A stretch of DNA of 64,000 nucleotides from a virus: the IMG/VR virus record IMGVR_UViG_3300033997_000077, positions 32,001 through 96,000 of that record. One strand, given 5' to 3'. Position numbers and translations under genes: made by a program. A model generated the notes under the pieces. It was given only the letters and a program-made list of their open reading frames with translations, made no database searches and was not told the DNA's origin. Below, piece after piece: positions 1,566 to 39,459 of the stretch; the stretch's first letter is position 1; each line of letters opens with the position of its first letter.

Positions 1566-3875
1566 ATGCAACTGTCGATTAGCTCTATTGCCTCGACTTC
1601 TGCGCAACAAGATTTCGAGTGGTACATCTACAAGGGCAGCACCTTCACTGTCACTGGTGGTACTGCCCGAGCGCAAGTCAAAGAAGGGACGCGGGTTGGC
1701 ATCCGCCCAGTTGCGCGCTCCAAGGATTACTACATCGTAACCGAGGACGCGCCGAAGAAGCTGTTCAAGATTACCAAGCAACGCGCCACCAAGATTGCAG
1801 GCACTGGCAAACGCATCAAGCGTGTTATCCTGCAAGGTGATCAGCCCACTGCGAAAACCAAAGAGATCCTCGACGACGCTGCAACTCAGAAGTTTGACGC
1901 TGACCGCTTCAAGCCGCTGGGCACCGTTCGCAACGAAGCGTTCGGGCGTGACGGCACAGAGGCGTTCGGTGTGGACACCACCAACTACCAGTGGCGCGTT
2001 GTGCGTGACCCCGAGTACCTGATCCAAACCAACAAGCGGCCTATCAAGCTGCGCCGTGGCGACAAGATCGGTATGCGCTTTGGTCGTCCGTCACAGGGCG
2101 GTAAGATCGTTGACCTCAACGGTATGTATGAGACGGTAACCACCGCCGAGTACGACCGCATTGCATCCGACCTTCCGGTAATGCCGAAAGGGCGCTGGCC
2201 GCAGACCGTTGTTACTCCCGAGATGATCAAAGAGTACCAACTCAACAAAGAGCGTCAGCGTGTTCGCGAACGTAACGAGCGCGAGAAGGAAGAGCGTGCC
2301 CAACAGGCTGCTGTCCGCAACGCAGAGCGCGAAGCCAAGCAGCAGAAGGAAGAGGAAGAACGTCAACGTCGCGCGCTGGAAGCCAAAGAGCACGGCGAGA
2401 TCGTCAAGCAGATCGACGAAGCGGCCAAGGCCGAAACCGCTAAGGCCGAGCAGCTGAAGGAAGAGCGCCGCGCCAAAGCCGGACTGCAAGACGAAGATCT
2501 CCGCAACGCCAAAGCCAGTAAGATGCAGCCGTTGGAGCACGCACTGGAAGAGGAAGACGTCGATGACGACGAGGACTTCGGTGAAGATCTGGAAGGTGAT
2601 GTCACTCGCCAGTCCGACGACAAGAAGGCCGAGCGCGTCAAAGAGAACGACGTTGAGAAAGCCAAGCTCGACGCACGCAAGCGCGCTGAAGACATCAGCC
2701 TCCGTATGGCCGAAGCACTCAAGGCCGTGATCGAAGCTGCTGGCGATGACAAGGAAGCTGAAGCAGAAGCTCGCGCCGAGTACAAGGCAGACGCCAAGAC
2801 TCTGAAAGCCGCCGACACCACCGACGAGGACAAGGATGCCATCGTTGCTAAGTGGGAAGCAAAAGCCAACGGCGGCGAAGAGCAGGAAGAGGAAGAGCAG
2901 GAAGAAGACCCTGCCGCCGAGGAAGACCCTGCCGCCGAGGAAGACCCTGCTGCTGAGGAAGAGGAACAGGAAGAAGAGGACGCCGATCCTGCCGCCGAGG
3001 AAGAGGAACAGGAAGAAGACCCTGCTGCCACCGACGAATCTCCGGACGATGAAGAGTTCGAAGAAGAGGATGACGGATCGGAAGAAGGCGACGAAGACTT
3101 CGAAGAGGACGACGCCGACGCCGCTGCTGGTGATGAATCTCCGGACGATGAAGAGTTCGAAGAGGAAGAAGAGGATCCGGCTGCTGGTGATGAATCTCCG
3201 GACGATGAAGAGTTCGAAGAGGAAGAGCAGGACGACGAAGACTTCGAACCTACTGCTGACGACGACGCCGATCTCGATGACATGGTAGAGCCCGAGATTG
3301 ACGAAGACTCCGCAGGGATCGCCGACACATTGCGCGACAATCCAGACGCGCAAGACTTCGATGACGATGACGCGGTTTCCGATCTGGCGGACGTAGACGA
3401 GGAAGACATCGGCAAAGAGCCCGAGGAAGAGAAGACCCCTCCGAAGGACGCGCCGAAGAAACCGAAGGCTAAGGAAGAAGCGCCGCCTGAAGAGTCGGAA
3501 GATGACCCGCTCGAATTCGAAGACGAAGAGGATCCCGAAGCTGAAGCAGAAGTGCCGAAGCCTGCTGGCATCAAGGATACGCAGACCGCTGAAGAAGGCG
3601 ACCTGCTGACGTTCCATGATGACACCAAGCTCAAGCGCCGCTTCCTGTTGGTATCCGCCGAGCCTATGGAGCAGAACGACCGCATCATTGTCTACAAGCT
3701 GTGGGACTTTGATAGCAAGCCGGAAACCTACCGCACTGTGCGCGTAGCTACTGACCGTGGGCAGAGCATCCTGAAGTACGCTGACAAGGTTGGTCAGGTT
3801 ACTCCGAAGGAATTCAACGAAGCGCAGGACGCCGTTGATAACGCGGAGCATGACAAATCTGCAATCAAGAGTTGA
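1566..3875 (+). CDS. Acidic repeat-rich protein with N-terminal SxS leader; candidate internal head protein
   Basis: 769 aa; MQLSISSIASTSA leader, two small beta domains, a coiled coil, then a very long D/E tract. Confidence 0.6.
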   Translation: MQLSISSIASTSAQQDFEWYIYKGSTFTVTGGTARAQVKEGTRVGIRPVARSKDYYIVTEDAPKKLFKITKQRATKIAGTGKRIKRVILQGDQPTAKTKEILDDAATQKFDADRFKPLGTVRNEAFGRDGTEAFGVDTTNYQWRVVRDPEYLIQTNKRPIKLRRGDKIGMRFGRPSQGGKIVDLNGMYETVTTAEYDRIASDLPVMPKGRWPQTVVTPEMIKEYQLNKERQRVRERNEREKEERAQQAAVRNAEREAKQQKEEEERQRRALEAKEHGEIVKQIDEAAKAETAKAEQLKEERRAKAGLQDEDLRNAKASKMQPLEHALEEEDVDDDEDFGEDLEGDVTRQSDDKKAERVKENDVEKAKLDARKRAEDISLRMAEALKAVIEAAGDDKEAEAEARAEYKADAKTLKAADTTDEDKDAIVAKWEAKANGGEEQEEEEQEEDPAAEEDPAAEEDPAAEEEEQEEEDADPAAEEEEQEEDPAATDESPDDEEFEEEDDGSEEGDEDFEEDDADAAAGDESPDDEEFEEEEEDPAAGDESPDDEEFEEEEQDDEDFEPTADDDADLDDMVEPEIDEDSAGIADTLRDNPDAQDFDDDDAVSDLADVDEEDIGKEPEEEKTPPKDAPKKPKAKEEAPPEESEDDPLEFEDEEDPEAEAEVPKPAGIKDTQTAEEGDLLTFHDDTKLKRRFLLVSAEPMEQNDRIIVYKLWDFDSKPETYRTVRVATDRGQSILKYADKVGQVTPKEFNEAQDAVDNAEHDKSAIKS
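2877..3250 (+). repeat. Coding tandem repeats (18-nt EEDPAA x3; ~57-nt AAGDESPDDEEFEEEE x2-3)
   Basis: GAGGAAGACCCTGCCGCC units at ~2901-2954; GAATCTCCGGACGATGAAGAGTTCGAAGA occurs three times between ~3036 and 3220. Confidence 0.85.
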
Positions 3876-3881
3876 TAACGC

Positions 3882-6744: not shown

Positions 6745-7866
6745 ATGAATAAGGTAATGGTCGCATCCATAATGCGCGACGAGGCGCGGAACATAGATGA
6801 CTGGTATGCGAGTGTGCAGCACGCGGACAAGATTGTTCTTGTCGACACTGGATCGTCGGACGACTCAGTGGCACTCGCTGAATACTACGTTGGTATCCAT
6901 CACGACATGACTGTGCTGCGCATGTTGCCTGCTGACTTCGATGGGCCCGTAGCTTACGATGTTGCACGATCAATGGCGTGTGCCGCCGCCGACCACGACA
7001 CCATTTGCATGTGGCTGGATCTTGACGAGCGCTTTATCTCGCGTGGCGTTAAGGACTGGACGGTCGAGATTCGTGAGTTGCCGGATCACGTTGACCTCGT
7101 TAACGTGCAGATGGATTTGCTTGGTGACCAGTCCATCGTCTACAAGCAAGCGAAGGGATTCCGTGGCGGCACCCATTACTGGAAGTACGCCGTGCACGAA
7201 GTGCTGAAGCCTGTTGGGCAACTCAGCGTTCCTCACGAAGCTACAACGTTCAACTCTCTGCACCTGCAAGAGCCGCACAAGAAGTATCGCAGCTTTCATC
7301 TGGATTTGCTGTTGCGCGACTACGCGTGCTTCCCGCACGACGAGCGTGTCCTGTTCTATCTGACCCGCCAGTACGCCTACGCACTGTCTGACATGATTGA
7401 AGATAGCGACGTTCCCGATGAAGCGATCATTGCGTACTACCAGCAGAACGTCAGCCGCTGCTTTGGTCTCCTGCGATCCATTGCACGCTACGATGATTTT
7501 ATCACGTGGGCAGCACTGGAAATCGCTCGGGCTGTGCAGTCCCACTCCATGCTGGCTTCTGAAGGTGCGTTGCATGCAATGATTGCGCATACGTATCGTC
7601 CAGACCGCATCGAAACGCTCGGCCAGCTGTGCATCTCGCACTACTATTCGGGCGAAGACCTTGCATGCGTCGCATTCGGCATACGTTGTATGGAGACAAC
7701 AATGCCCGTAGACAGTAATTTCATGTTCGACTACTCGAACTACTATCTACAGCAAGTTCCGGCGTTTGTGGTCAGATCGCTGGAATCGCTTCAAATGATT
7801 GATAAGGCCCATTTCTATGCACACAAATTCAAAAGAACCGATCTGCTTGAGCGAATCGGCGAGTAG
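6745..7866 (+). CDS. GT2-family glycosyltransferase with TPR-like helical C-terminus
   Basis: IMRDEARNI, VLVDTGSSDDS, WLDLDE (DxD), W..AVHE, followed by P.D.R.LFYL TPR-like helices. Confidence 0.85.
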   Translation: MNKVMVASIMRDEARNIDDWYASVQHADKIVLVDTGSSDDSVALAEYYVGIHHDMTVLRMLPADFDGPVAYDVARSMACAAADHDTICMWLDLDERFISRGVKDWTVEIRELPDHVDLVNVQMDLLGDQSIVYKQAKGFRGGTHYWKYAVHEVLKPVGQLSVPHEATTFNSLHLQEPHKKYRSFHLDLLLRDYACFPHDERVLFYLTRQYAYALSDMIEDSDVPDEAIIAYYQQNVSRCFGLLRSIARYDDFITWAALEIARAVQSHSMLASEGALHAMIAHTYRPDRIETLGQLCISHYYSGEDLACVAFGIRCMETTMPVDSNFMFDYSNYYLQQVPAFVVRSLESLQMIDKAHFYAHKFKRTDLLERIGE

Positions 7867-9067
7867 CTGGTGGGACAGCCGTTCTCCTGAGAAGCAACGC
7901 GCCCACATCAAACGCCATCCCAACGGCAAATACGCCAAGATGGTTAAGAACCGCCAACTCGCTCTGAAGCCTCTGAACAAGAACGCGACCTCCAAGAAAG
8001 CAAAGTTCCGCACCCCAGTCGGTGGCTCCAACGTTGACAGAAACGTTGGCGGTGACGATGGTGAAGACGATGCAGGGGAAGACGAGGAAGCAGAAGACGA
8101 AGACGAAAACGAAGACGACGCTGCTCCCGACGTAGACGACTCTGAAAAAGAGCCTGCTGAAGATGAAGAGAAGAAAGACGCCGACTTCGCAGACGAGCCT
8201 GCTGGTTTGCCAGCACCTCGCGAAACTCGCCCGATCCCTCCGCGCTCCGCAATGGCTGACTCTTACCGCAGCTCGTTGCCGGATGCGCTGAAGGCGGGCC
8301 TTCGTGCTTTCTTCAGCACTCTCGACAGTGGCCGTAGTCCCGGCACGCGTGCTGATTTGCGTGACGCGCGCGAAGAGATCAACCGTGGTGACATTCCGGC
8401 AGTGGTCAAGAAGATGAAGCCGAAGTCCCGTGAGGACGAACGCACCCTGACCAGTGCGATCAAAGCAACGTTGCCGATTGCCAAGGTTGCGGCCTACGGT
8501 CTGATTGGGGTCGGTGCCGCGATGGCTGGTGCTGGTGCTATCCCTGCAATTCTGGCGTGCTTCTTTATCAACAGCACCCTGAATGCGGAGAGCATGTCAC
8601 GTTCCGCTGTGTACGCGTCACTATCTGGTGACGAGTGTGACCGACTTGTCGAAACCTTCATGGACTGGGCCGAGGGCCTGAACCTTGACGAGATCCGCAA
8701 GAGCGCTGACAGCGAATTCACCAGCACCAGCAGCACAGGCGTCGAAGTCAAGATTCGCCGTTGCCCGCTCGATTACTACCGTGGCCTTGAAGAGGCGTGT
8801 GGTCGTCGCTACCTGCTCGTAGTAGGTCGCAAGATTCGCGGCTTCCTCATGTGGGACAAGAAGTACGGCACGCCGAACAAAGAAGCAAACGGATGGTACA
8901 GCGTCCTCGTCGATGGCTTCAATGAAAACGCGTATCGCACTGACCGCGATTCCGCTACGCTCGAACCGTACACCGCGATTCACAAAAACGACATCGTGCT
9001 CGTTAATCCCGCCCGCATGCCTTACGAGTTTGCCAAGCAGTGGGCCGTTTCAGTTCTCCGGAGATAA
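7817..9067 (+). CDS. Hypothetical head-associated protein (SES leader, acidic tract, hydrophobic segment)
   Basis: Likely start ATG 7817 after TAAGG. Contains ICLSESASS, WWDSRSPEKQRAHIKRHP and a Gly/Ala hydrophobic stretch. Confidence 0.55.
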   Translation: MHTNSKEPICLSESASSWWDSRSPEKQRAHIKRHPNGKYAKMVKNRQLALKPLNKNATSKKAKFRTPVGGSNVDRNVGGDDGEDDAGEDEEAEDEDENEDDAAPDVDDSEKEPAEDEEKKDADFADEPAGLPAPRETRPIPPRSAMADSYRSSLPDALKAGLRAFFSTLDSGRSPGTRADLRDAREEINRGDIPAVVKKMKPKSREDERTLTSAIKATLPIAKVAAYGLIGVGAAMAGAGAIPAILACFFINSTLNAESMSRSAVYASLSGDECDRLVETFMDWAEGLNLDEIRKSADSEFTSTSSTGVEVKIRRCPLDYYRGLEEACGRRYLLVVGRKIRGFLMWDKKYGTPNKEANGWYSVLVDGFNENAYRTDRDSATLEPYTAIHKNDIVLVNPARMPYEFAKQWAVSVLRR

Positions 9068-9069
9068 CA

Positions 9070-9861
9070 ATGAGCGAATTTGATTCAGTGAAGGGGGCGT
9101 TCCGCTCCCTGTCCTTTGACGTCGGTGTCACTATCCCGCGTGGCCTTGACTTGCACAAGCTGCAAGCCTCCCGCCAGTCAAAGTCGATTTCAGTTCGCGG
9201 CGAAAGCATGGGCGTTCGCGAATCCGTTAACCTCGACGTGAACACTTGGCTGCCCGCCGCTGCCGAACACTACAACATTAGCCGCGACATTCGTGACTAC
9301 GTGTTGCATCCGACAGTCGTCAACGTGTCTGGCATTCCCAACACCAACGCCGACGGGTTCGGCCTGAAAGATTGGCTGACCTTCCGCCCCGAGTTCGGCA
9401 TGCTGTCCTACAAGACATTCAAAGGCAAGCCCACTTTCATCGAGCACAACAACCAGAACCACCGCGTCGCCCGAGGTGCAATCTTCGATGCGCAAATGTC
9501 GAAGTTGCAGGGCTTCCATAAAGCGCATGGCCGTCTGATTCTGCTGCTCGCCTACGACCGCAACCTTGAGCCCGAGCTGTGCCGCGACATCTTGTCTGGC
9601 GTGCACAACACCTACTCCAAGGGCACTTGGTACAAGGCGTACACCTGCTCGATTTGCGGCGAGACCTTCACTGGTAGCAGCAAGCGCTTGTGCGGTCACG
9701 TTGGCAATCGCGTAATCCGTATGCCGGACGGTCGCCTTGCTTATCGCCAGTGCCACATTCTCGAAGGCTTCGAAACCAGTGCGGTTCGCAATCCGGCCTT
9801 CGTGTGCGCATCCCCCGATCCCAAATCCGTAATGGATCCTCGCAATAAGGAACGTTGGTAA
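9070..9861 (+). CDS. Candidate prohead (capsid maturation) protease with Zn-ribbon insert
   Basis: NTNADGF, TFKGKPTFIEH (His), GAIFDA, YSKG (Ser), CSICG..C.H, ETSAVRNPA match the HK97-type protease layout. It lies upstream of the scaffold and capsid genes. Confidence 0.7.
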   Translation: MSEFDSVKGAFRSLSFDVGVTIPRGLDLHKLQASRQSKSISVRGESMGVRESVNLDVNTWLPAAAEHYNISRDIRDYVLHPTVVNVSGIPNTNADGFGLKDWLTFRPEFGMLSYKTFKGKPTFIEHNNQNHRVARGAIFDAQMSKLQGFHKAHGRLILLLAYDRNLEPELCRDILSGVHNTYSKGTWYKAYTCSICGETFTGSSKRLCGHVGNRVIRMPDGRLAYRQCHILEGFETSAVRNPAFVCASPDPKSVMDPRNKERW

Positions 9862-22981: not shown

Positions 22982-23647
22982 ATGCTCTTAAATTTGAGCC
23001 TATCCGCCGCCAAGCCGCAGTACACTGAATTCGACTGGTTCAAGTTTACTGGGGTGCGTGGTGTATATCTCGAAAACAAGGAATACGAAGTCCAAATCGA
23101 CGCGGGCGAACGCTTCGGTGTTTTCATCGCGCAGCGTGGCGTTATCTACGTTGTGCACGAAGACCTGCCGACTGAGCTGTTCAAGTGCGATGCGAAAACC
23201 GCACGCTCTCTAATGAGTCGAGCAACGTACTACAAGGGACGCGTTAAGGGCAAAGCTGTAAACAACAGCAGACTTGTCAAAGGCGCGAACGTTCCACGTG
23301 ACCCGACTGCGCAGCCGCCAGCAGACCCAGCACCGGAAACCAAAACCAAAGCTGTGGGCAACGCCAAAGACATCTTGACCGCAATCCGCAAGCAATCGTT
23401 CGCCAAGCCGCGCAGTATCACCTACATGCGCAGTGCCGATATGGGCGAGGGCAAAGTGTTCTACTACGACGCGACTTCTTCCTACGTTGAATCCAAGTTG
23501 AAGGCCGCACAGTGGGAGAAGCACGCGGAGAAGATGCTGCTTGCCGCAATGGCGGGCACCAGTCACGAAGTCGGGGCAGTCGTGCAGCAACCAACATCAA
23601 AGACGCAGCCCGAGCGGGCGGTGTTGATGGTTAAGGTGGACACATGA
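22982..23647 (+). CDS. Protein with SLS leader and domain paralogous to the N-terminus of 1566..3875
   Basis: MLLNLSLSAA; FDWFKFTG...GERFGV...YVVHEDLP.ELFK. Confidence 0.65.
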   Translation: MLLNLSLSAAKPQYTEFDWFKFTGVRGVYLENKEYEVQIDAGERFGVFIAQRGVIYVVHEDLPTELFKCDAKTARSLMSRATYYKGRVKGKAVNNSRLVKGANVPRDPTAQPPADPAPETKTKAVGNAKDILTAIRKQSFAKPRSITYMRSADMGEGKVFYYDATSSYVESKLKAAQWEKHAEKMLLAAMAGTSHEVGAVVQQPTSKTQPERAVLMVKVDT

Positions 23648-32560: not shown

Positions 32561-32953
32561 ATGAACATTGAACTCAACATGTGCGTTGCTAACGCTTCGC
32601 TGTCCGCAGACCCAGTTGTTACGTTCTTAGAGCGTATGCGCAAGGCTGCGTACTCTACTGCCCCCAATCCGATTCGCGCAGCGCTGAAGAAAGTGAACCC
32701 CGACCACGTGGAAGATCTCAACTTCATTGTGCTGGGCGCGCCGTCGCTCACTACCAAAGACCCCATTGGGTTTGCGGTGGAAGACCCAGTGGACAATACT
32801 GTGGTCACGTCGTACCTCATTGATCGTGTTGCGCATGGTTCCCCTCTCGGGCGCGTGACTTCCGTGCGTGCTGACGACGCTAAGCTGGCAAACGTGCCAC
32901 TCAGTTATCAACACAGCGTTGTCCTAATGCGCATGCCGATGGACGCCCTGTAA
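32561..32953 (+). CDS. Small protein with SLS leader
   Basis: MNIELNMCVANASLSA; strong RBS. Confidence 0.65.
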   Translation: MNIELNMCVANASLSADPVVTFLERMRKAAYSTAPNPIRAALKKVNPDHVEDLNFIVLGAPSLTTKDPIGFAVEDPVDNTVVTSYLIDRVAHGSPLGRVTSVRADDAKLANVPLSYQHSVVLMRMPMDAL

Positions 32954-32963: not shown

Positions 32964-33518
32964 ATGAACATCAATCTTGGACTCAACATGGTTTCGGAAT
33001 CTACCCGACGCCGTGGCCGCCAGAATGACCCTGACCGCACGACCCCCGCTGGCTACGCTGCTGTGTATCCAACTCCGGAGACCGTGCGGTTTGTCATGTC
33101 TGAGTTGGAGAAGATTGGCCTGAAGACCGACTTCGATCCCAAAGACTTGCACGTTACGATGATGTACGACGTCGAGAACCCCGTGCTGTTCCATCCGGCA
33201 GCCCCGATTCAGATCGAAGCGACCGTGAATAGCGGCGCACTGTTCGGGCCGGAAGAGAACACGTTGGTTCTGAAGCTGGATAGCCAAGGTCTGATTGCTC
33301 GTCACAAGTACCTGCGTCAGATGGGCTACCGTCACAGCTACCCTGAGTATGAGCCGCACATGACAATCAAAGTTCCTGCCGATCAGCTGGACTTGGATTT
33401 GCTCAATCAGGGTTTGGCCGCTGGCGCGTTCAGTGGTGTGCGCCTCGTCTTCGGTGGCGAGACTTGGGAACCGATCCGCGAGGATGCTTATGCCAAGTAC
33501 GAGGACAAGGACGAATAA
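32964..33518 (+). CDS. 2H phosphoesterase, Acb1 (T4 gp57B)-like anti-CBASS candidate, with SES leader
   Basis: Two HxT motifs (LHVTMMY, PHMTI) and LVLKLDS..L..RH.Y....G..H.Y..Y.PH, matching the T4 Acb1 pattern as recalled. Confidence 0.8.
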   Translation: MNINLGLNMVSESTRRRGRQNDPDRTTPAGYAAVYPTPETVRFVMSELEKIGLKTDFDPKDLHVTMMYDVENPVLFHPAAPIQIEATVNSGALFGPEENTLVLKLDSQGLIARHKYLRQMGYRHSYPEYEPHMTIKVPADQLDLDLLNQGLAAGAFSGVRLVFGGETWEPIREDAYAKYEDKDE

Positions 33519-33525: not shown

Positions 33526-34032
33526 ATGACTCCAAGTCAGCGGGCGTTTGGAAACAAGCTGCCCGCATCGTTCGTCTCTATCAGTCGAAATCAAGTTGCC
33601 CCGCTATTGCGACAGGCACTATCTCCATACTTCACGAAGCTCATGTATAGCCTGCACTTTGAGGTGGGGGTCGAGAGGGGCGGGCATTTACGTGCTGACG
33701 TCGTATGTGTGAAGATGGATCGCTCTGTCACGATAGTTGAGGTGAAAAGTGGATGGCAGGATTTTGCGGCAGACCATAAATGGCAGCGCTATTTACCGTT
33801 CTGCAACCAGTTCTACTTTGCAGTGAGCGACGCACTCTGGGACACTCACGCCGACCGCTTGAAAGAAGCGTTGGCTGGGTCGGGTGCTGGCATCATCGTG
33901 TGTAGAACTGGTGGCCCTGTGCGCAAAGTCCTGCCTGCGGCTAAAAGGAAAATGGCACCTGCTCGACGCATTTGGCTATTCACAAAGCTCGCGTGGATTT
34001 CTGGGCTGTCTCGGGCACGGAGAGTTAACTAA
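33526..34032 (+). CDS. MmcB-like PD-(D/E)XK nuclease
   Basis: EV......RADV....IVEVKS...DF..D.KW..YLPFC..FYFAV. Confidence 0.8.
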   Translation: MTPSQRAFGNKLPASFVSISRNQVAPLLRQALSPYFTKLMYSLHFEVGVERGGHLRADVVCVKMDRSVTIVEVKSGWQDFAADHKWQRYLPFCNQFYFAVSDALWDTHADRLKEALAGSGAGIIVCRTGGPVRKVLPAAKRKMAPARRIWLFTKLAWISGLSRARRVN

Positions 34033-34739
34033 TGAACATTGCATTAGGATTGAATCAGGTTAAGTCGGAAAGCAGCGTGGAAGGCGAGCGCGCCTTTGCC
34101 GACATCTTCGGTGACATCTTCGGTCAGATGTTCACGGACAGTATGCGCAAGTACAAGAAGGCCGACACTGAGTGCATGCTCGGCCCGCTGGAATCTGCAT
34201 CCAACGCACAGCAAGCGTCGCGCAGCAGCCAGCACACCAAGTTCGGCCCCATCACGATCACTACTCGCCTCGAAGGCGCTGACATGTTCTCCATCGTGTG
34301 GAGCAACCGGATGAATAACTCGTCTATCGGGATCCACAAGTTCTCCAAAGGGCGCTACGTTGTGGAACTCGGTCTGGCGAGCGGTGCACGTGTTGAAGCC
34401 CTGAACTTCAAGGCCATTGAGCACGCCACGGCGTTCGCTCTGCTCAACACTGACGTGACTCGGGTACAAGATGATCACGCACTGGCCGCGCGCAAGCACT
34501 TCCTGCAATTCCTCGTCGCGCGAGAGAAGCGGGCACAAGGCGCAGTGAAGTTCACGAAGACCGCGTGGCAAGTTAGCCGACTGCGCGGGCAGGATGTGAA
34601 GTTCAGCGAAGGCACCATCGACCACATTGGCCGCTTGATGTTCCTGCTCCCCAGCGAGAAAGCACTGATCACAACCTCCGATGGTAGCGGCAAAGTCGTT
34701 AAGCACACCGTACCGTTCGACAATATTTGGATCCAGTAG
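34032..34739 (+). CDS. Protein with SES leader
   Basis: MNIALGLNQVKSESS; GGAG RBS. Confidence 0.65.
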   Translation: MNIALGLNQVKSESSVEGERAFADIFGDIFGQMFTDSMRKYKKADTECMLGPLESASNAQQASRSSQHTKFGPITITTRLEGADMFSIVWSNRMNNSSIGIHKFSKGRYVVELGLASGARVEALNFKAIEHATAFALLNTDVTRVQDDHALAARKHFLQFLVAREKRAQGAVKFTKTAWQVSRLRGQDVKFSEGTIDHIGRLMFLLPSEKALITTSDGSGKVVKHTVPFDNIWIQ

Positions 34740-34748: not shown

Positions 34749-36881
34749 ATGCGAAAGCCTAAGTACAGGATTCTCCTTGGGGACAACCGCAAGACGCTTC
34801 CGACGATTCCGGATAAATCCATCTCCTGTTGTGTAACGAGCCCGCCCTATTATGGGCTGCGCGATTACGGCGGCATGGAAGAGCAGATCGGTTTGGAAGC
34901 GACGCCGGAAGAATACGTCGCGGAGCTGGTGAAAGTGTTCGAAGAAGTGAAGCGTGTTCTGCGGGATGACGGTACGCTGTGGTTGAACATTGGGGACACC
35001 CATTACAACTATCGTCCAACATCTGGCGACGACACGCGTCCGCATTCATTCGGCGGCGCTCGCACTGACGCAATGAAGCGGGGGCTGCCCAAGGACAACT
35101 CAAAGACGCACCGTGGCCGGAAGCTGACGACCGTTAAGCAGAAGGATCTGATCGGCATTCCTTGGATGCTGGCCTTTGCGTTGCGTGCTGCTGGTTGGTA
35201 TCTGCGGCAGGACATCATTTGGAGCAAGCCGAACCCGATGCCGGAAAGCGTCGGGGATCGTTGCACCAAAGCGCACGAATATATTTTCCTGCTCACTAAG
35301 AAGCCCCGCTATTACTTCGATAAGGAAGCCGCGAAAGAAGCCGCCGTAACTGGTGGGCTGCGCAAGCGGCGCAGTGTATGGCACGTCCCCACAGTCCCAT
35401 ACAAGGGAGCGCACTTTGCAACGTTCCCTCCGGAACTTATCGAGCCGTGTATTCGAATCGGCGCGCCGAAAGGCTCACGCGTATTAGATCCGTTCGGCGG
35501 ATCCGGCACTACGGCTGGGGTGGCGCTCGCTTTAGGTTGCGATGCGACACTCTGCGAATTGGATCCAAACTCCGCAAAACTCGTCAAAGACCGAGTGAAG
35601 TCAATCGGTCGGGCATACAAACTGAAACTCAATGAGGAACAAGACATGGAAATCAAACTGTCTGTATCGGCATTCAAGCCGAAAGTTCAAACAGGTGACC
35701 CGAAGCGCGATCTGGCGACGTCCCCGTCGGGGCGTCAAAGTGTGATGTCAGCCACGGAAATCACGAACATCGCACAGAGCATAGTAGACAAGATGCGCAA
35801 GCGCAACCTTCCCATCAGGTCGGAACACTCCCTGCGCAAGGCTGCTACGGAGGCGGTGAACAGTTGGGTAAACCGCTCCACTGCGTCGAAGCTCACCAAG
35901 GAAGTTAAGCAGAAGGCGGCAACCAAACTGGTCAACCGTGTGGTCGCCCTGTTCAACAAAAGCGAGCCGAAGGGAGTCTCTGCACCTAACGGCACCGATG
36001 CCAAGGCCAAGAAATTCTCCAAGGCCGAGATCGAAAAGATTGCAGGGCGTCTCGTCCACTACGTGAAGTTCTCCGGCGCGGTGGACAGCAAGAACAAGGA
36101 TAAATCCATCGACAACATTGTGAAAGGTTGGGCAGACATGCACAGCGTGCAGTATCCGAACCAATCACGCATGCTCAACAAAGACGCGGTTAAGAAGCAG
36201 CTGGTCGAGCTAGTCAACAAGAAGGCAGGCGGCTCCAAGAAAGCTCCGGCGTCCGCACCATCTGACAAGGTTGTGCCGAATACCGTGGCCGCCACCAAGG
36301 AAGAGAGACTGAAAGCTCAGATTCTGGCTGGCACCAAACTCCGCAACCAGTTCCAAGGCATGCTGGCAAAAGCCCCGTCCATGACTGCCAAGTCAATCGA
36401 GAACATCCGCAAGCATTGCGTTGCATACAACAAGGTGATCACCTCTGTTCAACGCGGCAACGAAGCGCTGGCCGAGACCACCAAGATCGAAGGGCTGCGC
36501 GGCATCGAATCCGTGAAGAACTACGTCAACAACGTTCTGGGCCTGACCTACGGCTACGTTGAAATCGCCAAGCAGTTGGGTGTTGCTCAGACTGCGCTGA
36601 AGGACAAGATCAATGCAGGCATCACCGTGGAGACTTCCAACGTTGAGCTGAAGCGCACCGCCAAGGCCAATGCGCAGCGTGCTCTGGGTTCCGTAGCCAA
36701 AGCACTCAGCCGCCGCAACTGCCAGCTGCCGACTTCCTTCCAGCGTGAAGTTGAGAAGGTGTTCGTGGACGCTGCGATGTCCGGTGACATCAAGAAGGCC
36801 AAGGAGCTGCTGCGTGATCGCATCGACATCTTTGTTGCCGACGTGTTCCGCAACAAGACCAAACTGTACTCAGCCAAGTAA
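34749..36881 (+). CDS. Beta-class amino (m4C/m6A) DNA methyltransferase fused in frame to a 411-aa basic protein
   Basis: TSPPY (motif IV) precedes VLDPFGGSGTT (motif I); IIW.KP and HFATFP present. No stop after the MTase domain. Confidence 0.88.
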   Translation: MRKPKYRILLGDNRKTLPTIPDKSISCCVTSPPYYGLRDYGGMEEQIGLEATPEEYVAELVKVFEEVKRVLRDDGTLWLNIGDTHYNYRPTSGDDTRPHSFGGARTDAMKRGLPKDNSKTHRGRKLTTVKQKDLIGIPWMLAFALRAAGWYLRQDIIWSKPNPMPESVGDRCTKAHEYIFLLTKKPRYYFDKEAAKEAAVTGGLRKRRSVWHVPTVPYKGAHFATFPPELIEPCIRIGAPKGSRVLDPFGGSGTTAGVALALGCDATLCELDPNSAKLVKDRVKSIGRAYKLKLNEEQDMEIKLSVSAFKPKVQTGDPKRDLATSPSGRQSVMSATEITNIAQSIVDKMRKRNLPIRSEHSLRKAATEAVNSWVNRSTASKLTKEVKQKAATKLVNRVVALFNKSEPKGVSAPNGTDAKAKKFSKAEIEKIAGRLVHYVKFSGAVDSKNKDKSIDNIVKGWADMHSVQYPNQSRMLNKDAVKKQLVELVNKKAGGSKKAPASAPSDKVVPNTVAATKEERLKAQILAGTKLRNQFQGMLAKAPSMTAKSIENIRKHCVAYNKVITSVQRGNEALAETTKIEGLRGIESVKNYVNNVLGLTYGYVEIAKQLGVAQTALKDKINAGITVETSNVELKRTAKANAQRALGSVAKALSRRNCQLPTSFQREVEKVFVDAAMSGDIKKAKELLRDRIDIFVADVFRNKTKLYSAK
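35646..36881 (+). CDS. Nested in-frame gene: Lys-rich protein with SVS leader
   Basis: GAGGA RBS at 35634-35638, then ATG 35646 giving MEIKLSVSAF, the same leader type as neighbouring genes. Confidence 0.6.
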   Translation: MEIKLSVSAFKPKVQTGDPKRDLATSPSGRQSVMSATEITNIAQSIVDKMRKRNLPIRSEHSLRKAATEAVNSWVNRSTASKLTKEVKQKAATKLVNRVVALFNKSEPKGVSAPNGTDAKAKKFSKAEIEKIAGRLVHYVKFSGAVDSKNKDKSIDNIVKGWADMHSVQYPNQSRMLNKDAVKKQLVELVNKKAGGSKKAPASAPSDKVVPNTVAATKEERLKAQILAGTKLRNQFQGMLAKAPSMTAKSIENIRKHCVAYNKVITSVQRGNEALAETTKIEGLRGIESVKNYVNNVLGLTYGYVEIAKQLGVAQTALKDKINAGITVETSNVELKRTAKANAQRALGSVAKALSRRNCQLPTSFQREVEKVFVDAAMSGDIKKAKELLRDRIDIFVADVFRNKTKLYSAK

Positions 36882-36890: not shown

Positions 36891-37553
36891 ATGGATAGTT
36901 ACATCGTACTTGAAGGGCCGGATTTCGCTGGCAAGTCTTCTCTGATTGCTTTCATTGCGGAGCAACTTCAAGCGCGCGGTGTGGAAGTGGAGGTCGTCCG
37001 CGAGCCGGGCGGCACCCCTTTCGCTGAAGCGATGCGCGAGAGCGTGCTGTGCGGAGAGTACAACCCGAGCCAAGAAGCCGAACTGTTTGCCATGCTGGCA
37101 GCACGTGCCGATCTGTTCCACAAGCGGATTCTTCCGGCGTTGGAGCAAGGCAAAGTTGTACTGGGTGACCGTGGTTCTCCCAGCACTGACATCTACCAGT
37201 GTGGTAACGATGACGTACTGCGTGACATGTTCCTGCGCTACAAGAAGATAGCCGCACCGATCACTCCGCTGTACGTGTTCCTCGAACTCGACTACGAGAC
37301 CTACCTCGAACGCCGCAACGCGCGTGCTGCTGAAGGTCAGGCGCTCGACGCCATCGAGAAACGTTACACCGAGCGCTCAAAGTACGAAGCCCTGATGTCC
37401 AGTTACCGTCAGGCTGCTGCCCGTGAGCAGAACGTACTGATCGTCAACGTCGTTGGCAAGACGATTGAGCAGATCTACAATGAACTCTGGCCGTACCTGC
37501 GCTGTGAAGCGCAGTTGTCTGTAGGAGGCCCCCGTGAATGTGACCCAGCGTAA
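36891..37553 (+). CDS. tmk: Thymidylate kinase
   Basis: YIVLEGPDFAGKSS P-loop, REPGGT, ELF...AAR, VVLGDR. Confidence 0.93.
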   Translation: MDSYIVLEGPDFAGKSSLIAFIAEQLQARGVEVEVVREPGGTPFAEAMRESVLCGEYNPSQEAELFAMLAARADLFHKRILPALEQGKVVLGDRGSPSTDIYQCGNDDVLRDMFLRYKKIAAPITPLYVFLELDYETYLERRNARAAEGQALDAIEKRYTERSKYEALMSSYRQAAAREQNVLIVNVVGKTIEQIYNELWPYLRCEAQLSVGGPRECDPA

Positions 37554-39459
37554 TTTTGGCGTCCGTATGCAAAGCCTCAGTCAAGTGTTACCGATGACTT
37601 CGGAGTCCGCCGTGACTCCGATTCGTCTGAAGTACATGGGCAGTGCGCCCGTGGAACTCGACGGTAACGACGACTGGGATGCGTCGATGGACAAAGGCGA
37701 AGCCTACGAGCTTGTGCCTGCCGCAAACGCACGCGGCAAAGTCGCCATTGTGTTGAAGATTGAACGCAAACGTGAATTCTTCTACGTCAGCGACCGTGCG
37801 AAGATCATGCAGATTCTGGCGGGCACCAAGTTCCCCAAGAAGATGGATCTCGACAACCTGCTGTACGCAACAGGCAAGGGCGTGAACCGTGCGAACTTTG
37901 TTGAGGTCGGCACCATTGCTGAAGACATCAACGATATGTCTACGCACAAGTGGTTCCTCGCCGCTGGGATCAAGATGTATATGGACAAGAACAAGCGCCA
38001 TTACTTCTGTTTCGATCTCAAGAACCCGATGGAAACCTACCTGCCGAAGACCAAGGTAGCCCGCCTGAAAGCGTCGTTCAAGCCGCAGCCCGCTAAGACC
38101 ATCGTGCAGCAAATCGCGGACAAGGTTGAGGAAAAGGTTGCTGGCACGAAGACCGTGCACCAGTACGACGGCGGCCCCATCGATCCGAAGTACGTAGGCG
38201 ACCCGAACTTCAGCGTCCTGATCGGCGGCAACGTCTACAAGGGCACCGAACTCAGCATCGACAACAAGGGCAACGTGTACCATCCGGTTGCGTCCGATGA
38301 CCCCATCGAGAATGCGTTGCGTAACCACAAGCGTCCTGCCTACAAGAACATGACGACCGCGCAGATCGGTGCTGCGTTGCTGGCTATGCCGCGCGAGCAG
38401 CTGTATGTTGAAGCCGCACGTGCTGCCCACGCCGAAGACCTGCGCGCACTGCTGGCAGCTGGCCGTACACTCTCGCAGTGGAAAGACCTCGGCTACACCA
38501 GCAAGCAGGGAGCTGAAAAGCAACTTGCAGCAATCGAGAGCGCCAATGTACGCGAGGCTGTTCCGGTAACGAGCCCGACTGTTGGCCCACGCAACACCAC
38601 TATCCCACAGCCGAAGACCATTGCGGATTCCGATTACGGCTTCCTCGCTGTAACACCGCACGAACTTCACGCCAAAGATAGCTGGGTGGTGTACGCTCCG
38701 ACACGCGCGGCCCTTACTCGCCAACTCGACATCCTGCACTCTGCTGCTGGTGATTCGATGGCGAAGGCCGGAAAGGTCGAACTCTACAAGATCGTGCGTC
38801 AGTCGCCGCTTGTCCAGCAGATCGCCAAGCGCGCCGTCGCAATGTCTACTGCGGAAATCAAATCGAAGGCAACGTTCGTGCGCATGGTTTCCTACGTCGC
38901 GCCCATCGCCGGAGACGAGGTTCAGCATGAGCGTCCGTGGACTGACATCGACCCCGACGACATCAACGTCAGTTGGAGCGACTACGATCCTGCGGAAACC
39001 CGACTGGCGATCACCAAGCTGTTCAACGAGGGCTTCTTCAGTGCCACGTTGAAGCCGCGCCCGACTACCAAGGGTTTGGTGTTCGACATCGTTGGTGGCC
39101 GCGCTGGTCGTGATGAAGTCTACGGTGCAGTGCGCCGCGTGTACCAGTGGCTGCACAACATTGGAATCAACAACGTCAAGGTTGCCGCCAAGTGGGCACC
39201 GACCAAAGCGCTGATTGACTTCAAGTTCCCTGCACTGTCCGCCGACGAGAAAGAGAGTATCCGACTGCTGCGCGAGAAGCCGCCAGTTATCGGGGCACCG
39301 CTCTACACCATCGAGGCGCAGAAGCACCGCACGTTCCAGATCTACGCTGCCGACAACAACTCCGGTAAGGTGTTCATGTATCCTGTGCGGAATACTCAGC
39401 CGCTCACGAACGAGCCGACGCCTGTGCTGTACTGCAAAGTTCAACGCATTGCAGAATAA
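37534..39459 (+). CDS. 641-aa protein with SLS/SES leader; candidate internal head protein
   Basis: GTG after AGGAGG (alternative ATG 37567); MQSLSQVLPMTSESA. Confidence 0.6.
   Translation: MNVTQRNFGVRMQSLSQVLPMTSESAVTPIRLKYMGSAPVELDGNDDWDASMDKGEAYELVPAANARGKVAIVLKIERKREFFYVSDRAKIMQILAGTKFPKKMDLDNLLYATGKGVNRANFVEVGTIAEDINDMSTHKWFLAAGIKMYMDKNKRHYFCFDLKNPMETYLPKTKVARLKASFKPQPAKTIVQQIADKVEEKVAGTKTVHQYDGGPIDPKYVGDPNFSVLIGGNVYKGTELSIDNKGNVYHPVASDDPIENALRNHKRPAYKNMTTAQIGAALLAMPREQLYVEAARAAHAEDLRALLAAGRTLSQWKDLGYTSKQGAEKQLAAIESANVREAVPVTSPTVGPRNTTIPQPKTIADSDYGFLAVTPHELHAKDSWVVYAPTRAALTRQLDILHSAAGDSMAKAGKVELYKIVRQSPLVQQIAKRAVAMSTAEIKSKATFVRMVSYVAPIAGDEVQHERPWTDIDPDDINVSWSDYDPAETRLAITKLFNEGFFSATLKPRPTTKGLVFDIVGGRAGRDEVYGAVRRVYQWLHNIGINNVKVAAKWAPTKALIDFKFPALSADEKESIRLLREKPPVIGAPLYTIEAQKHRTFQIYAADNNSGKVFMYPVRNTQPLTNEPTPVLYCKVQRIAE

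What the first reader, a model, noticed from the sequence alone, without database searches (positions are those of the whole stretch)
1566..39459. Shared 'M-x-I/L-x-L...S-x-S' leader on ~10 unrelated proteins: candidate capsid-targeting/maturation code
Seen: N-termini MQLSISSIASTSA (1566), MHTNSKEPICLSESA (7817), MKLSASLTAMSLSA (18298), MKLNIKTVSVSA (21672), MLLNLSLSA (22982), MNIELNMCVANASLSA (32561), MNINLGLNMVSEST (32964), MNIALGLNQVKSESS (34032), MEIKLSVSA (35646) and ...MQSLSQVLPMTSESA (37534). All have a short alternating hydrophobic strand ending in S-x-S plus a small residue, while their bodies differ. The ligase, tmk, thyA, folA, sheath and tube starts lack it. Known: T4 internal proteins carry a short N-terminal capsid-targeting sequence removed by the prohead protease. 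Inference: this is an analogous zip-code that loads dispersed cargo proteins into the head for injection.
Basis: partly seen in the sequence, partly recalled or inferred. Interest (0 to 1): 0.9.

Follow-up and report, generated by a model that had tools for sequence, protein, structure and literature searches.

The report
Shared cleavable leader marks phage cargo
About twenty otherwise unrelated proteins of this giant phage begin with the same 7-16-residue tag ending in Ser-x-Ser, which is most likely the cutting site of the phage's head protease and the ticket that loads anti-defence enzymes into the capsid, a new variant of a trick known from phage T4.

Summary
The 130-kb phage contig around the window holds 11 more, in a tandem island just upstream.

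The tag is M-x-hydrophobic-x-hydrophobic, then S-x-S, then usually Ala. A loose regex hits 21 of 129 N-termini, against 3.4±1.8 after shuffling.

The same hydrophobic-S-x-S-small motif occurs in three head-module proteins:
- at two conserved spots in the N-terminal part of the major capsid protein;
- at the N-terminus of the prohead protease;
- 13 times in a 764-aa acidic protein, against 2.2±1.4 in shuffles.

Orthologues in Erwinia and Dickeya jumbo phages, at 31-36% identity, keep both Ser while the middle residue varies. The tagged bodies include ADP-ribosyltransferases, a NUDIX hydrolase, an Acb1-like phosphodiesterase and KMPT-N proteins.

Best reading, confidence about 0.6: a T4-CTS-like propeptide that the prohead protease cuts off and that marks cargo for the head. 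Cleavage, packaging and injection are inferred, not shown. I found no description of this motif in print. I rate it a new variant of a known kind.

The parts
1566..3875 (+). 769-aa tagged protein; the tag is the first 12 codons; the N-terminal body is a KMPT-N domain
   Evidence: for the tag. Pfam KMPT-N E 7e-8. The Y3 orthologue keeps a 7-residue tag ending L-S-E-S-A.
7817..9067 (+). 416-aa tagged protein directly upstream of the protease; probably a head-assembly or core protein
   Evidence: Tag. Three further motif sites inside the protein. Orthologues align only in the C-terminal part yet carry S-x-S-type N-termini. The tag is identical in G001, 17 of 17 residues, while the whole protein is 80% identical.
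9070..9861 (+). Prohead (head maturation) protease, the presumed enzyme that reads the tag; it has S-x-S-F near its own N-terminus and a Zn-ribbon insert
   Evidence: phrog_18299 'head maturation protease', E 1e-87. H126, S183, C193, C196, C208 and H210 are invariant in 22 sequences. AF2 model pLDDT 81.5. BFVD fold matches to prohead serine proteases.
14046..16340 (+). 764-aa protein rich in Ala, Ser, Glu and Asp, in the head module, with 13 copies of the motif; a candidate scaffold or core protein that the protease cuts into pieces
   Evidence: 13 sites against 2.2±1.4 in 2000 composition-preserving shuffles, none reaching 13. The model has a long low-confidence acidic middle and a helical C-terminal domain, but its mean pLDDT is only 57.
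17198..18301 (+). Major capsid protein with motif sites at residues 27-31 and 71-75
   Evidence: phrog_2522 E 5e-80. The first site lies directly before the conserved G-E-[IL]-N-A. The second site is conserved as S-x-S-[AGS] in relatives. Distant capsid proteins begin to align at residues 30-32.
18298..18729 (+). 143-aa tagged protein directly downstream of the capsid gene
   Evidence: Orthologues keep L-S-G-S at residues 4-7. phrog_36266.
21672..22409 (+). 245-aa tagged protein between the sheath and tube genes
   Evidence: The only orthologue found is in the close relative, with an identical tag.
22982..23647 (+). 221-aa tagged KMPT-N protein; the best-conserved example of the tag
   Evidence: Pfam KMPT-N E 1.7e-13. 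In alignment A3 of 14 sequences, M1, L2, S6, S8 and A9 are invariant; 12 of the 13 orthologues are 31-36% identical to the window protein.
32561..32953 (+). 130-aa tagged protein of unknown family
   Evidence: The tag matches G001 at 15 of 16 residues.
32964..33518 (+). 184-aa tagged Acb1-like / 2H phosphoesterase
   Evidence: Pfam Acb1 E 1.3e-16, 61 bits against a cut-off of 27. phrog_755 'RNA ligase'.
34032..34739 (+). 235-aa tagged protein of unknown family
   Evidence: In G001 the first Ser is Thr.
34749..36881 (+). 710-aa open frame: a DNA methyltransferase (residues 1-299) running without a stop into a tagged 411-aa protein that starts at 35646
   Evidence: phrog_67 and phrog_498 methyltransferase hits end near residue 299-333. 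Internal Met with its own RBS. In G001 the tagged gene stands alone with no methyltransferase upstream.
37534..39459 (+). 641-aa tagged protein; the tag ends at residue 25 from the GTG start, or residue 14 from the ATG at 37567
   Evidence: phrog_32352. The G001 orthologue is called from the same GTG-type start.

Best explanation
The tag is an N-terminal propeptide read by the phage's own prohead serine protease (window 9070-9861).

Its constant core is hydrophobic-S-x-S followed by a small residue, usually Ala. This is the protease's recognition site. The same site is used to trim the capsid protein, to process the protease itself, and to cut a large acidic scaffold or core protein into pieces.

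On about 20 proteins with unrelated bodies, the 7-16-residue peptide that carries this site acts like the T4 capsid-targeting sequence. It brings the protein into the assembling prohead and is then cut off, most likely just after the second Ser. The matured protein stays in the head and enters the cell with the DNA.

Many of the cargo proteins are single-domain counter-defence or host-takeover enzymes: ADP-ribosyltransferases, a NUDIX hydrolase and an Acb1-like phosphodiesterase.

What is shown: the motif, its enrichment, its conservation, its presence in head proteins, and the cargo families. What is inferred: cleavage, the scissile bond, targeting and injection.
For: 1. Enrichment at N-termini. 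21 of 129 proteins hit the regex, against 1.8% of interior windows and 3.4±1.8 in shuffles. Hits are 19 of 76 on the late-gene strand and 2 of 53 on the other.

2. Selection acts on the protein. Both Ser positions use TCN and AGY codons. In 14 orthologues of 22982, M1, L2, S6, S8 and A9 are invariant while residue 7 is L, E, T, V or A.

3. The same motif occurs in the head machinery.
- Capsid protein, first site: S-x-S directly before G-E-x-N-A in 36 of 68 related loci.
- Capsid protein, second site: S-x-S-[ASGD] about 40 residues further on in 23 of 68 loci.
- Protease: S-x-S-F at the N-terminus in 11 of 14 sequences outside the RSL1-like group and 0 of 8 RSL1-like sequences (my reading).
- The 764-aa head protein has 13 sites against 2.2±1.4, with 0 of 2000 shuffles reaching 13. 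Orthologues have 14, 12, 8 and 7 sites where shuffles give 1-2.6. Five RSL1-like orthologues have 0.

4. Co-variation across clades. RSL1-like loci have neither S-x-S tags (0-2 weak regex hits per locus) nor S-x-S in the capsid or scaffold-like proteins. Nine of the 19 loci of the G-x-N (RSL1-like) capsid type have [AS]-S-x-E in the stretch of the capsid protein where the second site lies.

5. Cargo families. ART-PolyVal E 1.7e-25, plus a weak second one; NUDIX 6.6e-17; Acb1 1.3e-16; KMPT-N twice. T4 Alt, an ART, is packaged and injected (PMC5512222, passages).

6. The enzyme. A PHROG head maturation protease with invariant His126 and Ser183 and fold matches to predicted prohead serine proteases.

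7. Experimental anchors in PaBG virions (Table 1 of PMC7412058).
- Band 1, a 221-kDa helicase-like protein, maps by size to a 1969-aa ORF whose N-terminus has L-N-S-L-S-A-A at residues 7-13.
- The paper says the capsid protein loses about 20% of its mass. That fits the second site at residue ~74 of 367.

8. The set turns over. Six tagged genes in contig 4246-9037 are absent from a 229.7-kb complete relative.
Against: - No proteomic or biochemical datum for this phage or for any relative shows a neo-N-terminus after S-x-S.
- The protease has no Pfam hit, no PDB sequence hit beyond a zinc-finger stretch, and no PDB Foldseek hit at E<=0.001. Its class rests on PHROG naming and on predicted-structure matches with TM 0.35-0.5.
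- In 3 of 68 loci the first capsid site reads D-x-[KR]-T, although tags in those loci are S-x-S. Two of the three do have S-x-S at the second site.
- PaBG shows no enrichment of S-x-S tags, with 8 regex hits against 7.3 expected. It carries x-E-A-type starts instead. The code is therefore not uniform in the family.
- In the Erwinia phages the scaffold-like orthologues are only weakly enriched, with 3-7 sites against about 2.
- Two tagged genes lie among tail genes (21672, 22982).
- PaBG virion band 8 maps, by my numbering, to an ORF with no tag.
- The part of the tag upstream of S-x-S is variable in length, and some of it could be spacer.
- Gene starts come from my own simple caller.
Confidence: 0.6

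Rival explanations
1. Cleavage without targeting. S-x-S is the prohead protease site, but the short peptide is only a removable cap, for instance one that keeps enzymes inactive or marks them for trimming. Entry into the head would depend on other features of each protein.
For: Everything that supports a protease site supports this equally. The constant part of the tag is essentially the site itself, and the upstream part varies in length from 4 to 13 residues.
Against: Bodies with only 2 BLAST-detectable relations among 21 would each need their own way into the prohead. In T4 the equivalent short propeptide is the targeting element (PMC5694885, passages). M1, L2 and the hydrophobic positions upstream of the site are also conserved.
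Confidence: 0.17
2. An assembly or chaperone tag that is not a head-cargo ticket. The shared N-terminus would recruit a common chaperone or host protease, as with the Prp/L27-type leader on the 80alpha capsid and scaffold proteins. Alternatively it would direct proteins to another virion compartment such as the tail lumen.
For: 80alpha capsid and scaffold proteins share a short N-terminal motif cut by a host protease, and the same motif occurs on non-homologous proteins including a tail protein (PMC5744158, passages). Two tagged genes here sit among tail genes.
Against: The motif is on the phage's own prohead protease and occurs 13 times inside a head-module protein. That points to the head protease rather than to a chaperone. 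The conserved residues are Ser-x-Ser, not the Phe|Ala of Prp sites. Many tagged proteins are enzymes with no structural role.
Confidence: 0.1
3. A nucleic-acid-level feature. The shared 5' coding sequence would be a translation or late-expression signal, or a recombination scar of cassette exchange, and the peptide would be a by-product.
For: The tagged genes form a cassette-like island whose content differs between two close relatives, with breakpoints next to gene boundaries.
Against: Both Ser positions use codons of the two unlinked families: TCN 18 and AGY 3 at the first position, TCN 16 and AGY 5 at the second. The amino acids are kept at 31-36% identity. The same peptide motif recurs deep inside head proteins.
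Confidence: 0.03
4. Chance or compositional bias of Ser-rich N-termini.
For: S-x-S is a low-information pattern. Four of the 21 regex hits look unrelated, and the SbcD/Mre11 N-terminus gives a false hit in relatives.
Against: 21 observed against 3.4±1.8, maximum 10 in 2000 shuffles. Binomial p about 3e-14. The motif is conserved in orthologues.
Confidence: 0.01

Closest known systems
Phage T4 capsid-targeting sequence (CTS) on the internal proteins IPI-III, Alt and other core proteins, removed by prohead protease gp21
   Same: - A short (10-20 aa) N-terminal propeptide shared by unrelated proteins.
- It ends at the prohead protease site, which is also used in capsid and core proteins.
- The cargo includes an ADP-ribosyltransferase that is injected.
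Sources: PMC5694885 passages and PMC5512222 passages.
   Different: - The site here is S-x-S, with Ser in the place of Glu in 21 of 21 tags. It is not [L/I]-x-E.
- The protease is not recognisable as gp21 by Pfam or PDB sequence search and carries a Zn-ribbon insert.
- There are about 20 tagged genes, many with recognisable counter-defence domains.
- Nothing has been shown experimentally here.
Propeptides of phiKZ, 201phi2-1 and SPN3US head and ejection proteins, cut at [S/A/G]-x-E or A-x-E
   Same: - Jumbo myoviruses whose heads carry many proteins that are processed at one motif by a T4-like prohead protease.
- A small residue at P3.
- Multiple cuts in propeptides.
Source: PMC5694885 passages.
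   Different: - Those propeptides are mostly longer than 100 residues and end in Glu.
- Here the peptides are 7-16 residues and end in Ser.
- This phage lineage (relatives of Y3, PaBG, Lu11 and RSL1) is a different group of jumbo phages.
Prp/L27-type N-terminal leader on the capsid and scaffold proteins of staphylococcal phage 80alpha
   Same: A short conserved N-terminal peptide on non-homologous virion proteins, removed by one protease (PMC5744158 passages).
   Different: - It is cut between Phe and Ala by a host cysteine protease that also matures ribosomal protein L27.
- It sits on structural proteins, not on enzymes.
- It belongs to Firmicutes hosts.
Polyvalent proteins of phages and conjugative elements (Iyer et al. 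2017)
   Same: The same domain vocabulary: ART-PolyVal, KMPT-N, 2H phosphoesterase and NUDIX-type enzymes. These proteins are predicted to be packaged and injected (PMC5512222 abstract and passages; Pfam hits).
   Different: There, 2-15 domains are fused in one giant polypeptide. Here most domains are separate proteins of 102-315 aa, each with its own tag. No N-terminal tag is mentioned in the passages I read: the term 'leader' has 0 occurrences.
Phage P1 Dar proteins (DarA, DdrB, Hdf)
   Same: Anti-restriction proteins that are proteolytically processed and incorporated into the head (PMC5512222 passages).
   Different: The passages I read describe no shared short N-terminal tag for them, and their incorporation is hierarchical. 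I did not test any homology to them here.

Membership tests
T4-type capsid-targeting sequence (CTS) | A short N-terminal peptide (about 10-20 aa) shared by proteins with unrelated bodies | tested here: met
   21 tags of 7-16 residues. Only 2 body pairs are similar by BLASTP.
T4-type capsid-targeting sequence (CTS) | The peptide ends in the motif that the phage's prohead protease also uses in capsid and core or scaffold proteins | tested here: met
   The motif is shared with two capsid-protein sites, the protease N-terminus and 13 sites in the 764-aa head protein. This shows a shared motif, not cleavage.
T4-type capsid-targeting sequence (CTS) | The peptide is absent from the mature virion protein | not testable with these tools
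   This needs virion N-terminomics. The PaBG paper reports processing of virion proteins but gives no sites.
T4-type capsid-targeting sequence (CTS) | The peptide is sufficient to load a foreign protein into the prohead | not testable with these tools
   This needs reporter fusions.
T4-type capsid-targeting sequence (CTS) | The site is [L/I]-x-E with the cut after Glu | tested here: not met
   Ser occupies the corresponding position in 21 of 21 tags. x-E-A starts appear only in PaBG.
T4 gp21 / HK97-type prohead serine protease (the enzyme) | A sequence match to the curated families or to solved structures | tested here: not met
   Pfam gives 0 families. The PDB sequence search gives only zinc-finger stretches.
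T4 gp21 / HK97-type prohead serine protease (the enzyme) | The fold of prohead serine proteases | tested here: inconclusive
   No PDB Foldseek hit at E<=0.001. BFVD gives 86 hits at E<=0.001. After the PaBG and RSL1 homologues these include proteins named prohead serine protease, COG3740 and XkdF, at E 1e-5 to 1e-8 and TM 0.35-0.5.
T4 gp21 / HK97-type prohead serine protease (the enzyme) | Invariant His and Ser spaced about 50-60 residues apart (the spacing in T4 and HK97 is recalled, not from a call) | tested here: met
   H126 and S183 are invariant in 22 sequences.
Prp/L27-type leader | A conserved motif cut between Phe and Ala | tested here: not met
   The conserved residues are S-x-S followed by Ala or Asp. 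The Prp site is as described in PMC5744158.
Prp/L27-type leader | A host-encoded Prp protease (Firmicutes) | not tested
   The host of this contig is unknown. Cultured relatives infect Erwinia, Dickeya, Pseudomonas and Yersinia.
Polyvalent proteins | Domains drawn from the polyvalent set | tested here: met
   ART-PolyVal, KMPT-N, Acb1/2H and NUDIX.
Polyvalent proteins | Two to fifteen disparate domains in one polypeptide | tested here: not met
   15 of the 21 tagged proteins are 102-315 aa, and no tagged protein has more than one recognised domain (two overlapping hits on one stretch counted once).
Sec/Tat/lipoprotein signal peptide | A hydrophobic core of 7 or more residues after a basic n-region | tested here: not met
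   The longest hydrophobic run in the first 25 residues is 5 or fewer in all 21. I ran no dedicated predictor.

The most novel reading that the evidence does not exclude
A whole lineage of jumbo phages (relatives of Y3, Alexandra and JA29, this contig, and many uncultured ones) has re-specified its prohead protease from the canonical small-x-Glu site to Ser-x-Ser. It uses a 7-16-residue 'tag plus site' cassette to load a swappable set of 15-20 stand-alone effectors into the capsid for delivery ahead of gene expression. These effectors include ADP-ribosyltransferases, NUDIX, an Acb1-like anti-CBASS phosphodiesterase, SprT/KMPT-N proteins and, in relatives, topoisomerase I and a 220-kDa helicase. 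The injected proteome of these phages could then be read directly from genome sequence.
Probability: 0.4. Interest if true: 0.8.

Novelty: new variant of a known kind. Interest (0 to 1): 0.62.

Why it matters
If the tag works as proposed, four things follow.

1. It gives a sequence-only way to list the packaged and probably injected proteins of a large, poorly studied group of jumbo phages. More than half of the tagged proteins here have no known family.
2. It predicts that counter-defence enzymes arrive pre-made with the DNA. Examples are an Acb1-like phosphodiesterase, NUDIX and ADP-ribosyltransferases. That changes how defences such as CBASS should be expected to fare against these phages.
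3. It documents a shift in prohead-protease specificity, from Glu to Ser at the presumed P1, with sister clades that keep S-x-E or x-E-A. That would be a useful natural experiment for this protease superfamily.
4. A 7-16-residue packaging tag would be a practical tool, as the T4 CTS has been.

The concept itself (a CTS, internal proteins) is decades old in T4, so this is an extension and not a new principle.

Tried and rejected
Steps that led nowhere:
- Megablast of window 1-20000 against 50,697 phage records found no match.
- Pfam on the protease, the capsid protein, the 764-aa, 237-aa and 1379-aa head proteins gave 0 families.
- The PDB sequence search with the protease gave only zinc-finger stretches, best E 0.0099. 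Foldseek against the PDB gave 0 hits at E<=0.001.
- NCBIfam on 10 tagged proteins of unknown family gave nothing above cut-off.
- The ESM Atlas on the 881-aa tagged protein gave no named family.
- BLASTP of the two large tagged paralogues (contig 9919 and 12567) against the giant helicase-like proteins of Y3 and PaBG gave no hit.
- A regex for the RSL1-type shared N-terminus in the RSL1-like metagenomic loci gave 0 of 426 called genes, so I did not pursue that lead.
- The AF2 model of the 764-aa protein is of low confidence (mean pLDDT 57, pTM 0.26). I use it only as a weak hint of a disordered acidic middle.
- Complex prediction with the protease (23-263) and the first 60 residues of the 22982 protein, both as alignments, returned 'no answer', with ipSAE 0.00 and 0.01 against a mark of 0.32. 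This is no evidence either way.
- The RSL1 genome paper (PubMed 20034649) is not held. Supplements are closed. Supplementary Table S2 of the PaBG paper, and the Y3 virion proteome paper (recalled, not held), may bear on which tagged proteins are in virions.

Readings considered and rejected:
- Signal peptide: no hydrophobic core.
- Paralogy of whole proteins.
- Contig 26844 (271 aa) as a member. Its PaBG orthologue is annotated as an endosialidase-chaperone-like tail protein and lacks S-x-S.
- SbcD-type N-termini in G001 and PaBG, which are a conserved nuclease motif and not a tag.
- Contig 50781 (window 18781) may be a further member, because its orthologues keep S-T-S-L near the N-terminus. 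I left it out of the count.

Searches behind 'not found in print':
- Listings.
- Passages of PMC7412058, PMC7824862 and PMC5512222.

Full report
WHAT THE WINDOW IS

The window is bases 32001-96000 of a 129,992-bp IMG/VR virus contig that CheckV rates about 49% complete. It has no near-identical match among 50,697 deposited phages.

Its proteins place it in a lineage of jumbo myoviruses:
- The capsid protein is 45-49% identical to those of the Erwinia and Dickeya jumbo phages (Y3, Alexandra, JA11/13/29, AD1, the pEa_SNUABM series) and of one Yersinia and one Salmonella phage.
- It is 38-40% identical to Pseudomonas phages PaBG and Lu11.
- It is about 30% identical to Ralstonia phiRSL1 and similar phages.
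- One uncultured relative, handle G001, is a complete 229,746-bp genome with about 80% nucleotide identity and a 98% identical capsid protein.

I called genes with a simple codon-usage and RBS caller of my own: 131 on the contig, 70 wholly inside the window.

THE OBSERVATION

There are two qualifications:
- 35646 is an internal Met, with its own Shine-Dalgarno, in an open frame that begins at 34749.
- 37534 is a GTG start. An ATG at 37567 gives a shorter version of the same tag.

Upstream of the window, at contig 3069-14774, lie eleven more genes in tandem that begin the same way.

Aligned on the last S-x-S, the 21 tags read as follows:
- Met, then a stretch in which hydrophobic and polar residues tend to alternate. 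Position -1 is Leu in 10 of 21. Position -3 is Ile or Leu in 11 of 21.
- Ser, 21 of 21.
- A variable residue: L 7, T 5, E 4, A 2, V 2, M 1.
- Ser, 21 of 21.
- Ala in 13 of 21; otherwise D, S, K, N or T.

The tags are 7-16 residues long up to the second Ser. None has a hydrophobic run longer than 5 residues.

CHANCE CONTROLS

- A loose regex, [LIVMCT]-S-x-S within the first 18 residues, hits 21 of 129 complete proteins, against 35 of 1922 interior windows.
- It gives 3.4±1.8 hits when residues 2-30 are shuffled, with a maximum of 10 in 2000 shuffles.
- Seventeen of these 21 regex hits are in my curated list, and four look unrelated. Four curated tags escape the regex.
- Hits are 19 of 76 on the strand that carries the structural genes and 2 of 53 on the other.
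- A position matrix built from the tags is circular when applied to them. In leave-one-out form, 13 of 21 still exceed the 99th percentile of interior windows.

The signal is at the protein level:
- The two Ser positions use both TCN and AGY codons, 18/3 and 16/5.
- With tags removed, only 2 of the 210 possible body pairs are similar by BLASTP: 9919 with 12567 strongly, and 22982 with 5835 weakly.

WHAT THE TAGGED PROTEINS ARE

Pfam hits:
- ART-PolyVal for contig 3069 (E 1.7e-25), and weakly for contig 5182.
- NUDIX for contig 6656.
- Acb1 (anti-CBASS phosphodiesterase, 2H superfamily) for window 32964.
- KMPT-N for window 1566 and 22982.

The rest have no family in Pfam, PHROGs with a known function, or NCBIfam.

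These are the domain types that Iyer et al. catalogued in 'polyvalent proteins' and predicted to be injected with phage DNA (PMC5512222, abstract and passages). Here they occur as separate small proteins, each with its own tag.

THE HEAD MODULE CARRIES THE SAME MOTIF

Gene order in the window is:
- tagged 416-aa protein (7817)
- head maturation protease (9070; phrog_18299, E 1e-87)
- 1379-aa protein
- 764-aa protein (14046)
- virion structural protein (16402)
- major capsid protein (17198; phrog_2522)
- tagged 143-aa protein (18298)

The motif appears in three of these.

1. The capsid protein.
   - Hydrophobic-S-x-S sits directly before a G-E-[IL]-N-A block that is conserved across the whole family. 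Distant capsid proteins start to align at residues 30-32.
   - In 36 of 68 related loci the site before this block is S-x-S, with the middle residue E, S, Q or A.
   - A second site lies about 40 residues further on, at residues 71-75 here. It is S-x-S-[ASGD] in 23 of 68 loci.
   - The PaBG paper states that its capsid protein loses about 20% of its mass on maturation (PMC7412058, section 3.2). That would fit the second site.
2. The protease. It has S-x-S-F-[D/S] near its own N-terminus in 11 of 14 sequences outside the RSL1-like group and in 0 of 8 RSL1-like ones (my reading of alignment A2).
3. The 764-aa protein, which is rich in Ala, Ser, Glu and Asp.
   - It has 13 matches to [LIVMFCAT]-S-x-S-[ADSTNGKF], against 2.2±1.4 in composition-preserving shuffles. 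None of 2000 shuffles reached 13.
   - Orthologues have 14 sites (G001), 12 (L042), 8 (L031) and 7 (L058), where shuffles give 1.0-2.6.
   - The Erwinia-phage orthologues have 3-7 sites against about 2.
   - Five RSL1-like orthologues have none.

A head protein studded with the motif is what one expects of a scaffold or core protein that the maturation protease cuts into small pieces. Its model is poor (mean pLDDT 57) but shows a long low-confidence acidic middle and a helical C-terminal domain.

CONSERVATION AND CLADE PATTERN

- In 14 orthologues of the 22982 protein, 12 of which are 31-36% identical to it, M1, L2, S6, S8 and A9 are invariant and residue 7 varies.
- Y3 orthologues of 1566, 22982 and the NUDIX gene keep the tag.
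- The whole Y3 genome (handle G002) has 20 regex hits in 321 called genes against 7.8 expected. About 14 of them look like clear tags, including one on a 1951-aa protein.
- Uncultured clades show the same starts (L038, L042, L045, L057).
- Between this contig and G001 the tags are 135 of 144 residues identical, against 86% for the aligned proteins.

RSL1-like loci lack S-x-S tags, with 0-2 weak hits each. Nine of the 19 RSL1-like loci classified have [AS]-S-x-E in the stretch of the capsid protein where the second site lies. That is the kind of site known from phiKZ-type phages.

PaBG is intermediate. It has no enrichment of S-x-S starts, 8 against 7.3 expected, but it has several starts ending in x-E-A.

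Together this suggests a shift from Glu to Ser at the presumed P1 position within the lineage. That is my inference. It rests on alignment of short segments.

THE ENZYME

- The protease has no Pfam hit and no PDB sequence hit beyond a zinc-finger stretch.
- Its AF2 model (pLDDT 81.5) has no PDB Foldseek match at E<=0.001.
- Against predicted viral structures it matches its PaBG and RSL1 homologues. It then matches many proteins named prohead serine protease, COG3740 or XkdF, at E 1e-5 to 1e-8 and TM 0.35-0.5.
- His126 and Ser183 are invariant in 22 sequences, as are C193, C196, C208 and H210 of an inserted zinc ribbon.

I therefore treat it as a divergent prohead serine protease. Membership in the gp21/HK97 families is not settled.

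EXPERIMENTAL ANCHORS

The only virion proteome I could read for the lineage is that of PaBG, with 14 Coomassie bands (Table 1 of PMC7412058). I mapped the paper's gene numbers to the RefSeq record by size and annotation.
- Band 1 (221 kDa, helicase-like) is a 1969-aa ORF whose N-terminus carries a hydrophobic stretch followed by S-L-S-A-A.
- Band 9 (gp83) has an x-E-A-type start.
- Band 8 has no tag.

This is thin, but it shows that at least one tagged, non-structural-looking protein is in virions.

HOW IT MOST LIKELY WORKS

1. The tag is made as part of late proteins.
2. Its amphipathic strand and S-x-S site are bound in the assembling prohead, by the protease or by a core component.
3. The protease, activated inside the prohead, cuts after the second Ser (or one residue later). 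It also trims the capsid protein at one or both sites, processes itself, and fragments the 764-aa protein.
4. The mature cargo stays in the head and leaves with the DNA.

Only the sequence facts are shown. Cleavage, the bond that is cut, targeting and injection are inferred by analogy with T4. There, all internal head proteins use a 10-20-residue CTS that gp21 removes after Glu, and the CTS can load foreign proteins (PMC5694885 passages).

THE CARGO SET IS FLUID

Contig 4246-9037 holds six tagged genes and two others. In G001 it is replaced by about 0.4 kb with one untagged 142-aa gene, and the breakpoints lie within tens of bases of gene boundaries.

In the window a DNA methyltransferase frame runs without a stop into the tagged gene at 35646. 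In G001 that gene stands alone.

NOVELTY

I found no description of this tag or of an S-x-S protease site. The searches were:
- listings;
- passages of the PaBG paper;
- passages of two comparative papers by Iyer et al., neither of which contains the word 'leader'.

Supplements were closed, and the Y3 and RSL1 primary papers are not held. The principle is old, so I rate this a new variant of a known kind, not a new kind.

CAVEATS

- Gene starts come from an ad hoc caller.
- S-x-S is a low-information motif, so individual interior sites are uncertain.
- Three loci have a different first capsid site although they carry S-x-S tags.
- Two tagged genes sit among tail genes.
- The complex prediction gave no answer (see Tried and rejected).

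Noticed in passing
window 34749-36881: A DNA methyltransferase frame (residues 1-299) continues without a stop codon into the tagged 411-aa gene that starts at 35646 with its own RBS. In the complete relative G001 the tagged gene is free-standing and no methyltransferase lies upstream. This is either a recent insertion that lost its stop, or a fusion in which the tag would act as an internal cleavage site.
   Followed up: partly
L003 (contig) 4246-9037, against G001:C1:26041-26458: The island of tagged effector genes differs between two close relatives. Six tagged genes and two others here are replaced in G001 by one untagged 142-aa gene. That gene's C-terminal part is 42% identical to the C-terminal part of the tagged 315-aa protein at contig 8104.
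   Followed up: partly
L009 (phiRSL1) ORF123, 124, 127 and 133; locus 7296-9560 and 16821-17321: Four phiRSL1 genes near the head module share a different N-terminal pattern. It is an alternating start, then A-A-x-x-R-L, then [AGS]-[ST]-x-E-V. This looks like an analogous tag ending in the canonical small-x-Glu site. A regex for it found nothing in the RSL1-like metagenomic loci.
   Followed up: partly
L008 and L105 (PaBG): O152_gp083, gp258, gp265, gp267; G003 55970 and 108900: PaBG has several N-termini with an alternating start ending in x-E-A, including its LigT/2H phosphoesterase, instead of S-x-S. Its topoisomerase I, gp086 and the 1969-aa virion helicase-like protein have S-x-S-type starts.
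   Followed up: partly
window 9070-9861, residues 186-210: The prohead protease carries an inserted zinc-ribbon-like element. C193, C196, C208 and H210 are invariant in 22 homologues, and the PDB sequence search picked it up as C2H2-like.
   Followed up: no
window 14046-16340: Besides the 13 motif sites, the 764-aa head protein has two conserved Cys clusters (C82, C86, C99, C102; and C191, C210, C213) and a long poly-acidic stretch in all relatives. PHROGs and GenBank label the family 'ATPase', but I saw no Pfam support for that.
   Followed up: partly
window 18781-19554: The 257-aa protein after the tagged 143-aa gene has S-x-S-L at residues 4-7. Its orthologues keep S-T-S-L at about residues 10-14. 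It may be a further substrate. It is not counted among the 21.
   Followed up: no
L003 4305-4877: The tagged 190-aa protein has a sub-threshold Pfam match to the ATLF metallopeptidase domain (E 2.4e-4, 21 bits against a cut-off of 27). It could be a small zincin-like peptidase cargo. This is unverified.
   Followed up: no
L004 6844-7659 (contig 26844-27659): A 271-aa protein starts with a tag-like I-S-M-S-A. Its PaBG orthologue is annotated as an endosialidase-chaperone-like tail protein and lacks S-x-S. I judge it a look-alike.
   Followed up: partly
window 1-64000: ARAGORN finds no tRNA or tmRNA genes in the window. GC content is even, at 0.55-0.58 throughout.
   Followed up: yes
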